Virus record (IMG/VR): IMGVR_UViG_3300045988_163776
Coordinates: 128,001 to 155,695 of that record
Length of the DNA stretch: 27,695 nt
Reading direction: 5' to 3' (one strand)
From: a virus
This document shows positions 16,887 to 16,973 of the stretch, piece by piece. Position 1 is the stretch's first letter. Every line of letters begins with the position of its first letter. The notes under the pieces were generated by a model. That model did not search any database and was not told the origin of the DNA. It worked only from the letters and a program-made list of their open reading frames with translations. The position numbers were made by a program, and so were the translations under genes.

Positions 16887-16973
16887 TGGGGATTGGTGTA
16901 ATTGGCAACACGCGGGACTCTAAATCCCGAGCTTCTGAGGCGAAAGTTCTGGGTTCGAACCCCAGATCCCCAG
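16887..16973 (+). tRNA. amber suppressor tRNA, anticodon CUA, with tRNA-Gln-like acceptor identity and a long (19-nt) variable arm
   Basis: Acceptor tggggat/atcccca (U1:A72, G2:C71, G3:C70), discriminator G73, G10. D-arm gtgt-aattggca-acac. Anticodon arm cggga-ctCTAaa-tcccg with anticodon at 16920-16922. Variable arm agcttctgaggcgaaagtt. T-arm ctggg-ttcgaac-cccag. Confidence 0.7.

What the first reader, a model, noticed from the sequence alone, without database searches (positions are those of the whole stretch)
16887..16973. Suppressor tRNA(CUA) with Gln identity elements but a class-II-like long variable arm, placed at the early/tRNA-to-late boundary
The tRNA has an unambiguous CUA anticodon in a 7-nt loop (ctCTAaa). 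It carries U1:A72, G2:C71, G3:C70, G73 and G10, exactly the GlnRS identity set, and shares these with the tRNA-Gln(UUG) at 11200-11275. It also carries a 19-nt variable arm that is normally restricted to Leu/Ser/Tyr/Sec tRNAs. That combination is odd and leaves room for charging by something other than GlnRS. It is the last gene before the TAG-rich late block and sits behind its own TTGAAA-N17-TATAAT promoter (16788-16816), a layout suited to timing suppression to late infection.
Basis: seen in the sequence. Interest (0 to 1): 0.8.

Follow-up and report, generated by a model that had tools for sequence, protein, structure and literature searches.

The report
Suppressor tRNA with decoy glutamine anticodon
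A gut phage that reads the stop codon TAG as glutamine carries a suppressor tRNA whose extra arm is a small hairpin copying a glutamine anticodon loop, a feature shared by many phage suppressor tRNAs and possibly the way they stay chargeable by host enzymes.

Summary
Window 16887-16973 is a well-scored tRNA with anticodon CUA, a tRNA-Gln-type acceptor stem and D arm, and a 19-nt variable region. The phage (156-kb human-gut contig) reads TAG as Gln: TAG falls on the invariant catalytic Gln of a papain-like lysin, and standard-code homologues have CAA/CAG there.

The extra arm is not a class II (Ser/Leu/Tyr) arm. It is a short hairpin, GC-UUCUGAG-GC plus a 7-nt tail, whose loop reads like a tRNA-Gln anticodon loop with CUG at positions 34-36.

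This recurs widely. Scans that left the variable region unconstrained found the NN-(C/U)UG-A-N loop on covarying stems in 18 of 38 distinct long-arm tRNA(CUA) variable regions (shuffles: mean 0.5). In opal suppressors, 24 of 25 carry UCCAA, the tRNA-Trp loop. One amber suppressor with a CCA arm sits in a phage where TAG aligns with invariant Trp.

My reading: a "pseudo-anticodon" arm keeps the cognate anticodon signal for the charging enzyme while the real anticodon reads the stop codon. That function is inferred, not shown.

I found only an engineered precedent in eight literature searches. A theta (HDV-like) ribozyme candidate follows the tRNA.

The parts
16788..16816 (+). sigma-70-like promoter TTGAAA-17-TGnTATAAT, 70 nt upstream of the tRNA
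   Evidence: 11 of 12 positions match, with a TG extension. This is a consensus match only; the number of such matches in the region equals that in shuffles.
16829..16876 (+). leader hairpin (10-bp stem AAGACACAGA / UUUGUGUCUU) between promoter and tRNA; role unknown
   Evidence: MFE -10.1 kcal/mol for the leader 16817-16886.
16887..16973 (+). tRNA-Sup(CUA) with a tRNA-Gln-type body, ending at discriminator G73. No CCA is encoded; the next base is C.
   Evidence: The tRNA is identical in related phage contigs L128-L130, whose neighbouring ATPase is 94% identical.
16913..16929 (+). true anticodon arm CGGGA-CUCUAAA-UCCCG; anticodon CUA at 16920-16922
   Evidence: ARAGORN and the Rfam covariance-model alignment agree.
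16930..16948 (+). 19-nt variable region AGCUUCUGAGGCGAAAGUU
16931..16941 (+). pseudo-anticodon hairpin GC-UUCUGAG-GC, with CUG at 16935-16937. A further U.G and U-A pair could close the loop to a CUG triloop.
   Evidence: Homologous hairpins with covarying stems occur in 16 distinct arms. In this tRNA alone the energy model splits about 0.46 / 0.47 between this hairpin and an alternative stem CUUC/GAAAG.
16942..16948 (+). 7-nt single-stranded tail GAAAGUU. Relatives have GUAAGU, GAAAGAU or CUAGUU.
   Evidence: table of arms.
16975..17024 (+). candidate theta (minimal HDV-like) ribozyme. P1 is GUCAUC/GAUGAU with a G1.U wobble, P2 is GUAGAA/UUCUAC, P3 is GCC/GGC, L3 is UUUACGU, J4/2 is CUAA. Cleavage would leave ...G73-C74.
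   Evidence: My own descriptor scan. The HDV-like CPEB3 model gives 15.7 bits, E 0.13, below its threshold of 35. A paralogous copy lies 3' of tRNA-Pro(UGG). The class is described in bioRxiv 10.1101/2023.06.13.544163.
17089..17121 (+). intrinsic-terminator-like hairpin plus T run, closing the tRNA/ribozyme unit
   Evidence: 9-bp stem with 5 G-C pairs, followed by TTATTTTTAT.

Best explanation
This is the phage's own amber suppressor. It is a tRNA-Gln derivative whose anticodon is CUA, and it inserts glutamine at the in-frame TAG codons of the structural and lysis genes. Its enlarged variable region is not a class II arm. It is a small hairpin whose 7-nt loop (UU-CUG-AG) reproduces a tRNA-Gln anticodon loop: a 'pseudo-anticodon arm'. 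The enzymes that make Gln-tRNA(Gln) and Trp-tRNA(Trp) depend heavily on the anticodon, and a stop-codon anticodon destroys part of that signal (established knowledge for E. coli GlnRS and TrpRS, recalled, not tested here). I therefore infer that the hairpin re-supplies the cognate anticodon signal to the host charging machinery. It could act as an extra docking site, or by transiently taking the place of the anticodon arm. The real CUA arm decodes TAG on the ribosome. Shown: tRNA, anticodon, TAG=Gln, conservation and covariation of the mimic hairpin, and the match between mimic and decoded amino acid. Inferred: that the synthetase reads the hairpin, and how. The gene appears to be its own transcription unit (promoter-like site, leader hairpin, tRNA, self-cleaving theta-type ribozyme candidate that would cut the 3' end, terminator). 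This would let the phage control when suppression starts.
For: tRNA and anticodon. TAG=Gln in this phage: in the C1-peptidase/SLH lysin, TAG at residue 50 aligns with Gln in 37 of 37 homologues and with the DQG Gln of PDB 3ois. Residue 297 is Gln in 25 of 28. Standard-code homologues with no in-frame TAG (L125, L127) have CAA/CAG at three of the five sites. The collagen-like protein shows GPX/GIX next to GPQ/GIQ. Mimic hairpin: scans that left the variable region free gave 38 distinct long variable regions in tRNA(CUA). Of these, 18 have a hairpin with loop NN[C/U]UGAN, against a shuffle mean of 0.53 and maximum of 4 in 2000; 1 of 27 other long-arm tRNAs has it. A looser loop criterion (NN[C/U]UG in a 7-nt loop) picks out 12 distinct stems, among them GC/GC, GCC/GGC, UUCC/GGAG, CUG/CAG and CCUG/CAGG, and both Gln anticodons (CUG, UUG) occur. 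In an alignment anchored on the motif only, the covariation score is 0.64, against 0.17 in shuffles (0 of 500 reach it) and at most 0.11 in slid registers. Ordinary tRNA-Gln (16 distinct) and tRNA-Trp (23 of 24) in the same loci have short variable loops. Generalisation: 24 of 25 distinct long variable regions of phage tRNA(UCA) contain UCCAA, mostly as a 5-bp stem plus a CUCCAAA or GUCCAAA loop, which is the tRNA-Trp anticodon loop. Covariation there is 0.96 against 0.21. Specificity test: the tRNA(CUA) of L089 has a near-identical body but a Trp-type acceptor and a CUCCAAA arm. In that contig 5 of 6 in-frame TAGs of a GIY-YIG gene align with near-invariant Trp. Long-arm ochre tRNA(UUA) have class II bodies and no mimic. 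This fits, because the anticodon is not an identity element for class II-arm synthetases (recalled). Engineered precedent: a GUG pseudo-anticodon placed in the variable arm enhanced charging by a HisRS carrying an extra anticodon-binding domain (PMC7590224).
Against: No experiment or structure shows that any synthetase touches the hairpin. GlnRS is a monomer whose anticodon-binding domain sits far from where a variable arm projects (recalled structural knowledge), so the geometry is unexplained. In this particular tRNA the hairpin is weak (2 G-C pairs, -1.6 kcal/mol). An alternative stem, CUUC/GAAAG, is equally probable by energy. Its three closest arm relatives (L041, L070, L087) vary only at the C/U position, which also fits that alternative stem. 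The arm is not universal: several U1-type amber suppressors lack it, and 50 of 69 IMG/VR tRNA(CUA) with the same anticodon stem have short loops. E. coli supE works without such an arm (recalled). In L089 the acceptor stem changes together with the mimic, so the two effects are not separated. L070 and L087 combine an A1-U72/G73 acceptor with a UUG mimic. Related sequences inflate the counts.
Confidence: 0.55

Rival explanations
1. The arm is a true class II variable arm that redirects charging to SerRS, LeuRS or TyrRS, or to another non-Gln enzyme.
For: The length is 19 nt, and G73 is also the tRNA-Ser discriminator. Genuine class II-bodied amber and ochre suppressors do exist in phages, for example L017, L020, L031 and L330.
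Against: TAG aligns with invariant or near-invariant Gln and with CAA/CAG in standard-code homologues, never with Ser, Leu or Tyr. The D arm and acceptor stem are tRNA-Gln-like, with U1:A72. The stem is 2-4 bp with a 7-nt tail, unlike class II arms in the same loci, which have 3-7 bp stems and 1-4 nt tails.
Confidence: 0.03
2. The hairpin is a neutral relic, for example of a partial duplication of the anticodon arm when the suppressor arose. Its resemblance to a Gln loop is inherited, not selected.
For: The loop of the L016-type arm (CUCUGAA) differs from that tRNA's own anticodon loop (CUCUAAA) by one base. Many copies are closely related to each other.
Against: The stems have diverged and covary while the loop triplet stays fixed. 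Within the L016 group the acceptor stems differ widely (UGGGGUA, UGCCCUG, UCCUCUC, UGCCUCU and others) while the arm is unchanged. The same design with CCA occurs in opal suppressors. The window's arm loop (UUCUGAG) differs from both of the phage's own loops, CUCUAAA and CUUUGAC.
Confidence: 0.1
3. The anticodon-loop mimic is functional but serves something other than aminoacylation. It could be a decoy or shield against host anticodon nucleases, a handle for a modification enzyme, or a sponge or sensor for a host or phage factor that reads tRNA-Gln or tRNA-Trp anticodon loops.
For: The conservation and covariation evidence applies here equally. The geometric difficulty of a synthetase reading a variable arm favours a factor acting in trans.
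Against: The mimic tracks the amino acid decoded at the stop: Gln in the window, Trp in L089 and in the opal suppressors. It is absent from class II-bodied suppressors. This is what an identity element predicts. No nuclease specific for both Gln and Trp anticodons is known to me (recalled).
Confidence: 0.2
4. In this tRNA the variable region folds as the alternative stem C46-G60, U47-A59, U48-A58 with loop UGAGGC. It would then be a plain structural extension, and the CUG is a coincidence.
For:: pair probabilities are about 0.47 for this stem and 0.46 for the hairpin. In L070 and L087 the C-to-U change improves this stem to CUUUU/GAAAG, and it becomes their MFE.
Against: This stem cannot form in the homologous L062 and L016 arms, whereas the hairpin is available in every family. 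L062 (GCC-UUCUGAG-GGC-GUAAGU) links the window's arm to the L016 type by loss of one base pair on both strands. C and U at that position are exactly the two Gln wobble bases.
Confidence: 0.12

Closest known systems
Phage-encoded tRNA-Sup(CUA) of TAG-to-Gln (code 15) phages such as crAss-like phages and phAss-1
   Same: A CUA anticodon in a phage whose structural and lysis genes carry in-frame TAG read as Gln, presumably charged by a host enzyme (10.1101/2021.08.26.457843, PMC10607447, PMC9523058).
   Different: Those papers do not describe a long variable arm or an anticodon-loop mimic. The Borges preprint only remarks that phage tRNAs may have non-canonical structures.
E. coli supE, tRNA-Gln(CUA) (recalled knowledge)
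   Same: A tRNA-Gln body with anticodon CUA that inserts Gln at UAG, and the same acceptor identity set.
   Different: supE has a normal short variable loop. It is a weakened GlnRS substrate because G36 is lost. The phage tRNA carries an extra hairpin that displays CUG.
Class II tRNAs (Ser, Leu, bacterial Tyr, Sec)
   Same: A variable region longer than 10 nt that forms a hairpin.
   Different: Body type, stem length, the long 3' tail, a conserved loop sequence, and the amino acid decoded. In class II tRNAs the loop sequence of the arm is generally not conserved (PMC7609411).
[quoted passage not shown]
   Same: An anticodon-arm copy placed at the tip of the variable arm of an amber suppressor, to recruit a synthetase's anticodon-binding domain. 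It enhanced charging and specificity.
   Different: That system is synthetic, uses a 9/3 allo-tRNA chassis, and needed a HisRS fused to a second anticodon-binding domain. Here the design is natural, sits on 7/5 tRNAs, and has no known extra domain.
Anticodon-arm mimics in mRNAs bound by synthetases (thrS operator, recalled; yeast HisRS mRNA, PMC6542539)
   Same: A hairpin that copies the cognate anticodon loop and is read by a synthetase outside a normal tRNA context.
   Different: Those mimics are regulatory elements in mRNAs, not part of a decoding tRNA.
su+7, E. coli tRNA-Trp(CUA), mischarged with Gln (recalled knowledge)
   Same: It shows that tRNA-Trp and tRNA-Gln bodies are near neighbours in identity space once the anticodon is CUA. 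This is relevant to the Trp-like bodies that carry CUG arms (L014, L041) and to the CCA-arm amber suppressor of L089.
   Different: su+7 has no extra arm.
Theta (minimal HDV-like) ribozymes next to phage tRNAs (bioRxiv 10.1101/2023.06.13.544163)
   Same: An HDV-like fold that starts within 1-2 nt of the tRNA 3' end. These are frequent next to tRNA-Sup in gut Caudoviricetes.
   Different: The match here rests on my own descriptor and a sub-threshold covariance-model score. Cleavage was not tested.

Membership tests
Phage amber suppressor tRNA of a TAG-to-Gln (code 15) phage | Cloverleaf tRNA with CUA anticodon in a 7-nt loop | tested here: met
Phage amber suppressor tRNA of a TAG-to-Gln (code 15) phage | Genome with in-frame TAG in conserved genes, and TAG not used as a stop codon | tested here: met
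   36 in-frame TAGs in 29 genes, and all stops are TAA or TGA.
Phage amber suppressor tRNA of a TAG-to-Gln (code 15) phage | TAG positions correspond to Gln in homologues | tested here: met
   Codons were checked in two standard-code homologues, so the test is not circular.
Phage amber suppressor tRNA of a TAG-to-Gln (code 15) phage | The tRNA is charged with Gln and suppresses UAG | not testable with these tools
   Needs aminoacylation and reporter assays, or proteomics.
Bacterial-type tRNA-Gln | U1:A72, G2:C71, G3:C70, G73, G10 (E. coli GlnRS set, recalled) | tested here: met
   Read from the sequence. The same set is present in the phage's tRNA-Gln(UUG).
Bacterial-type tRNA-Gln | Anticodon YUG (U35, G36) | tested here: not met
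   The true anticodon is CUA. YUG is present only in the variable-arm hairpin (16935-16937).
Bacterial-type tRNA-Gln | Class I variable loop of 4-5 nt | tested here: not met
   It is 19 nt.
Class II tRNA (Ser/Leu/Tyr/Sec) | Variable region of at least 10 nt | tested here: met
   It is 19 nt.
Class II tRNA (Ser/Leu/Tyr/Sec) | Class II body: 3-bp D stem with a large D loop, a well-paired variable stem with a short 3' linker, and matching acceptor and discriminator | tested here: not met
   The D stem is 4 bp with an 8-nt loop. The variable stem is 2-4 bp with a 7-nt tail. The first pair is U1:A72. Compare the true class II tRNAs in L128.
Class II tRNA (Ser/Leu/Tyr/Sec) | The decoded codon corresponds to Ser, Leu or Tyr | tested here: not met
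tRNA-Pyl (ARAGORN's label) | 3-nt variable loop, compact D loop and a PylRS/pyl gene context (PMC7609411) | tested here: not met
   The variable region is 19 nt and the D loop is normal. TAG aligns with Gln. ARAGORN gives this label to any CUA anticodon.
Pseudo-anticodon-arm suppressor tRNAs (group defined here) | Stop-codon anticodon, plus a variable-region hairpin whose 7-nt loop carries the cognate sense anticodon at positions 3-5 followed by A | tested here: met
   GC-UUCUGAG-GC. The caveat is the competing fold.
Pseudo-anticodon-arm suppressor tRNAs (group defined here) | The mimic triplet matches the amino acid inferred at the recoded stop | tested here: met
   Window: CUG and Gln. L089: CCA and Trp. 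Opal loci L209, L213, L224, L249 and L159: TGA aligns with Trp; those with an opal suppressor listed (L209, L213, L249, L159) carry a UCCAA-containing arm.
Pseudo-anticodon-arm suppressor tRNAs (group defined here) | The hairpin contributes to aminoacylation | not testable with these tools
   Needs a kinetic or structural experiment.
Theta / HDV-like self-cleaving ribozyme | Nested P1-P2-P3 double pseudoknot beginning with G1 (G.U at the base of P1) and a C at the start of J4/2 | tested here: inconclusive
   My descriptor matches at 16975-17024. The CPEB3 model gives 15.7 bits against a gathering score of 35. A second copy with the same L3 and J4/2 motifs lies at 12509-12565.
Theta / HDV-like self-cleaving ribozyme | Site-specific self-cleavage | not testable with these tools
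   Needs an in vitro transcription and cleavage assay.

The most novel reading that the evidence does not exclude
Phage suppressor tRNAs for amino acids whose synthetases read the anticodon (Gln, Trp) form a natural, previously undescribed architectural class. In this class the variable arm is a second, non-decoding anticodon arm that carries the cognate sense anticodon: CUG or UUG for Gln, CCA for Trp. This pseudo-anticodon specifies or boosts charging while the real arm reads the stop codon. A corollary is that the pseudo-anticodon predicts the meaning of the recoded stop. That includes a TAG-to-Trp code in some phages that current pipelines mistranslate as Gln.
Probability: 0.5. Interest if true: 0.92.

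Novelty: new variant of a known kind. Interest (0 to 1): 0.85.

Why it matters
An open question is how recoded phages get stop-codon-reading tRNAs charged efficiently and accurately by host synthetases that depend on the anticodon. The Borges preprint says so explicitly. A built-in copy of the cognate anticodon loop offers a concrete, mutable element to test.

If the idea is right, it has four consequences:
- It shows that nature separates the anticodon used for charging from the anticodon used for decoding, on one molecule.
- It gives a sequence rule for predicting what a recoded stop means. Annotation could use this now: proteins from the TAG-to-Trp contig are stored with Gln at Trp positions.
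- It offers ready-made scaffolds for genetic-code expansion, since it is a natural version of a 2020 engineering idea.
- It may explain why Gln and Trp are the amino acids phages assign to stops.

If the idea is wrong, a strongly conserved, covarying hairpin in dozens of phage tRNAs still needs an explanation.

Tried and rejected
1. GenBank phage collection. Megablast of 14000-27695 and blastn of the tRNA region gave no match.

2. Exact-pattern scans for this tRNA's anticodon arm in IMG/VR gave no hit.

3. Relatives found through neighbouring proteins.
- The 231-aa protein gave only short weak matches with no tRNAs.
- The 345-aa peptidase gave L009, which has no suppressor.
- The recoded relative L122 has no suppressor within 10 kb of its lysin.
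- L132 and L133 have none in range.
- The closest relatives, L128-L130, have an identical tRNA and so give no covariation.

4. Host identification. The genome-contig scan returned only environmental MAGs with class II-like CUA tRNAs, and no prophage of this type. I could not decide whether the host uses GlnRS or GluRS/GatCAB.

5. TAG meaning in other mimic-bearing loci (L014- and L016-type). Local tblastn found too few conserved sites. L065 and L132 show TAG opposite E/K/Q/N/S and never W, which is suggestive only.

6. Rfam at gathering thresholds finds only tRNAs. The ribozyme is sub-threshold.

7. ARAGORN's 'tRNA-Pyl' label was rejected, as was the class II reading (see the membership tests).

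8. Ochre suppressors were examined as a further generalisation. They show no mimic and all have class II-like bodies.

9. Eight full-text searches found no description of a natural pseudo-anticodon arm, only the engineered one (papers read). Subscription-only literature was not searchable.
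Full report

Yes. ARAGORN finds a tRNA at 16887-16974 with anticodon CUA. The Rfam tRNA model scores 57.7 bits against a gathering score of 29. It aligns CUCUAAA as the anticodon loop and treats about 15 nt as an insertion in the variable region. The unconstrained MFE is the cloverleaf.

The following can be read directly from the sequence:
- acceptor stem UGGGGAU/AUCCCCA, giving U1:A72, G2:C71, G3:C70, with G73 and G10;
- a 4-bp D stem with an 8-nt D loop;
- anticodon arm CGGGA-CUCUAAA-UCCCG, with CTA at 16920-16922;
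- variable region AGCUUCUGAGGCGAAAGUU, 19 nt, at 16930-16948;
- T arm CUGGG-UUCGAAC-CCCAG.

The phage's ordinary tRNA-Gln(UUG) at 11200-11275 has the same acceptor set and a similar D arm, but a short variable loop.

**2. Where does it sit, and what does TAG mean here?**

The window comes from a 155.7-kb human-gut metagenome contig, ENA ERZ28573263 scaffold_68. It carries a large tRNA array.

Treating TAG as sense joins fragmented ORFs into long genes. Across 29 genes no stop codon is TAG, and there are 36 in-frame TAGs. Downstream of the tRNA, 9 of 13 genes carry TAG. Upstream, 3 of 16 do. One upstream gene, 15039-16001 inside the tRNA array, has 10. The 'boundary' is therefore real but not clean.

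The meaning of TAG was tested on the papain-like (Peptidase_C1 + SLH) lysin at 23312-24241, which has five TAGs.
- Residue 50 aligns with Gln in 37 of 37 homologues. It also aligns with the DQG glutamine of PDB 3ois, the position of the conserved papain-family oxyanion-hole Gln (recalled).
- Residue 297 is Gln in 25 of 28 homologues, and residue 20 in 19 of 37. The Gln background is 3%.
- Some database translations already assume table 15, so I checked codons directly. Homologues P0024 and P0027 have no in-frame TAG, lie beside a holin and a CHAP lysin, and have CAA/CAG at those three positions.

The collagen-like protein reads GPX/GIX beside GPQ/GIQ. TAG = Gln is well supported.

**3. What is the long variable region?**

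It is not a class II arm. The body is tRNA-Gln-like, the stem is at most 4 bp, and 7 nt follow it.

To find relatives I scanned IMG/VR and JGI metagenomes with a pattern that fixes only the anticodon loop with three flanking stem pairs, and the T loop. The variable region was left free. This gave 52 distinct long-arm tRNA(CUA).

Those with G1 look like Ser-, Leu- or Tyr-derived suppressors. Those with U1 or A1 (Gln- or Trp-like acceptors) nearly all carry a hairpin whose 7-nt loop is Y-U-(C/U)-U-G-A-R. This is a tRNA-Gln anticodon loop with CUG or UUG at positions 34-36, U at 33 and A at 37. Examples:

| Source | Arm |
|---|---|
| L016 type | GCC-CUCUGAA-GGC |
| L062 | GCC-UUCUGAG-GGC |
| L015 | UUCC-CUUUGAA-GGAG |
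| L014 | CUG-GGCUGAC-CAG |
| L025 | CCUG-UUCUGAG-CAGG |
| window | GC-UUCUGAG-GC |

Statistics:
- 18 of 38 distinct variable regions have such a hairpin. Shuffles give a mean of 0.53 and a maximum of 4 in 2000. Among other long-arm tRNAs 1 of 27 has it.
- When the alignment is anchored on YUGA alone, the flanking bases pair in the 7-nt-loop register at 19, 18 and 12 of 20, and much less in shifted registers.
- In the motif-anchored alignment A3 the covariation score is 0.64, against 0.17 in shuffles (0 of 500 reach it) and at most 0.11 when slid.

Within the L016 group the acceptor stem varies freely (UGGGGUA, UGCCCUG, UCCUCUC, UGCCUCU and others) while the arm is unchanged. Ordinary tRNA-Gln and tRNA-Trp in the same loci have short variable loops.

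**4. Does the idea generalise?**

The same kind of unbiased scan for opal suppressors (CUUCAAA loop, long variable region) returned about 30 tRNA(UCA). Of 25 distinct variable regions, 24 contain UCCAA. It usually sits on a 5-bp stem with loop CUCCAAA or GUCCAAA, which is a full-size copy of the tRNA-Trp anticodon arm. These arms sit on mostly Trp-type acceptors (AGGGGCU...G73). Covariation is 0.96 against 0.21 (0 of 500).

A sharper test comes from three metagenome loci, L089, L093 and L118. They have a tRNA(CUA) with essentially the L016-type body, but a Trp-type acceptor and the arm GGCGAG-CUCCAAA-CUCGCC.
- In L089 a GIY-YIG endonuclease gene about 1 kb away has six in-frame TAGs. Five of them align with near-invariant Trp, in 58-63 of 64 homologues.
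- Two of these positions also match the Trp residues of I-TevI.
- The few 'Q' entries are table-15 translations of recoded relatives; P0166, for example, has Q at all six sites.

So with the same real anticodon, the mimic (together with the acceptor) tracks the decoded amino acid. Loci with opal suppressors show TGA opposite Trp. Long-arm ochre tRNA(UUA) all have class II-like bodies and no mimic. This fits the fact that synthetases for class II-arm tRNAs do not use the anticodon (recalled).

The arm is common but not universal. Of 69 IMG/VR tRNA(CUA) with the same anticodon stem, 19 have long regions. Most of the short ones have unrelated G1 bodies.

**5. How it most likely works**

Shown:
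- the tRNA, its anticodon and TAG = Gln;
- a conserved, covarying hairpin that presents the cognate sense anticodon;
- its restriction to suppressors;
- its correspondence with the decoded amino acid.

Inferred: the hairpin is read by the charging enzyme. That enzyme would be GlnRS, or GluRS/GatCAB if the host lacks GlnRS; the host is unknown. The hairpin would compensate for the loss of G36 in the true anticodon, or of C34/C35 in the Trp cases. It would thereby raise both the efficiency and the specificity of charging. The importance of U35/G36 for GlnRS and of CCA for TrpRS is recalled knowledge from E. coli.

The mechanism of reading is open. The hairpin could be a tethering site, or it could exchange with the true anticodon arm. 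The Trp-type arms are full-size, 5 bp plus 7 nt, with 3-6-nt linkers on both sides, which would allow such a swap. The Gln-type arms are shorter and have a 5-7-nt 3' tail.

Against this explanation:
- there is no biochemical evidence;
- the geometry is awkward for a monomeric GlnRS;
- the window's own hairpin is weak, and by energy it ties with an alternative stem (0.46 against 0.47);
- its three nearest arm relatives (L041, L070, L087) do not discriminate between the two folds. L062 does bridge it to the unambiguous L016 type.

The rivals are a class II arm, a neutral relic, a different ligand, and the alternative fold. They are scored in their own section.

**6. The expression unit**

The unit has five elements, in order:
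- a strong consensus promoter match (16788-16816);
- a 70-nt leader with a 10-bp hairpin;
- the tRNA;
- an HDV-like architecture starting two bases after G73, at 16975-17024. P1 is GUCAUC/GAUGAU with G1.U, P3 is GCC/GGC, L3 is UUUACGU, J4/2 is CUAA, and P2 is GUAGAA/UUCUAC. The CPEB3 model gives a sub-threshold hit of 15.7 bits;
- a terminator-like hairpin (17089-17121).

A paralogous element with the same L3 and J4/2 motifs follows tRNA-Pro(UGG) at 12509-12565. This matches the published theta ribozymes, which are frequent next to phage tRNA-Sup. Cleavage would leave ...G73-C74 for CCA completion.

Late timing is plausible but untested.

**7. Comparison with what is known, and novelty**

Amber suppressors in TAG-to-Gln phages, their placement with late genes, and theta ribozymes are all known. 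The anticodon-loop mimic in the variable arm is not described in any of the papers I could search or read. That includes a 2020 review of non-canonical natural tRNAs and a 2025 screen of 213 phage suppressor tRNAs. [quoted passage not shown] I therefore class the window's tRNA as a new variant of a known kind. Subscription literature could not be searched.

**8. Caveats**

- Counts include related sequences.
- The search patterns fixed the anticodon-stem or T-loop sequence, so frequencies are not population estimates.
- Acceptor and mimic co-vary in the Trp case.
- The function is an inference.

Noticed in passing
L089 5673-5767 (-) and 6705-7517 (-); also L093 and L118: A phage contig where TAG appears to encode Trp, not Gln. 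Five of six in-frame TAGs of a GIY-YIG gene align with near-invariant Trp. The adjacent tRNA(CUA) has a Trp-type acceptor and a CUCCAAA arm. The database translation of a near-identical relative (P0166, 98% identity) has Q at all six sites, apparently a table-15 artefact. The papers I read report only TAG-to-Gln and TGA-to-Trp for phages.
   Followed up: partly
L147-L259 (e.g. L180 737-832, L173 12376-12471): Phage opal suppressors tRNA(UCA) with long variable regions almost all carry a full-size copy of the tRNA-Trp anticodon arm (5-bp stem plus a CUCCAAA or GUCCAAA loop), flanked by 3-6-nt linkers.
   Followed up: partly
window 16975-17024 and 12509-12565: Two candidate theta (minimal HDV-like) ribozymes lie directly 3' of tRNA-Sup(CUA) and of tRNA-Pro(UGG). 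They share the L3 motif UUYACGU and the J4/2 motif ACUAA. They scored below the Rfam threshold.
   Followed up: partly
window 15039-16001: A 320-aa gene inside the tRNA array, upstream of the suppressor, has 10 in-frame TAGs, the highest density in the window. It has three repeats of a W/Y-x-C-K/X-C-D-C-G motif and a weak DUF5889 match. It may be a mobile nuclease gene. It breaks the simple picture of early genes without TAG and late genes with TAG.
   Followed up: partly
window 11037-11109, 13082-13156, 7380-7472: Three odd tRNA-like genes. The first has an 8-nt anticodon loop (ARAGORN 'gatt'), with U1:A72 and a Gln-like D arm. The second has a 6-nt loop ('aa'). The third is a 93-nt 'tRNA-Pro(cgg)' with a poor acceptor stem. 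Low-scoring Rfam tRNA hits also lie at 7309-7378, 10296-10367, 13182-13252, 13283-13353 and 14589-14673.
   Followed up: no
L016, L023, L029, L036, L068, L092 and relatives: In the L016-type suppressor family, positions 8-65 are almost invariant, including the arm, while the acceptor stem differs between members by many compensatory changes. G2:C71 and G3:C70 are often lost. Only U1:A72 is mostly kept.
   Followed up: no
window, all genes: CAG is nearly absent (0-3 per gene), and TAG outnumbers CAG in the late genes. TAG seems to have taken over the CAG role in an AT-rich (31% GC) genome. No gene ends in TAG.
   Followed up: no
window 16829-16876: A 10-bp hairpin lies in the leader between the promoter-like site and the suppressor tRNA. 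Its function is unknown; it could be a processing or regulatory element.
   Followed up: no
window 11309-12400: An AAA ATPase gene embedded in the tRNA array belongs to a very large family: 2436 database proteins at E<=1e-10, many on 120-200-kb contigs. It could serve as a marker for this group of large gut phages.
   Followed up: no
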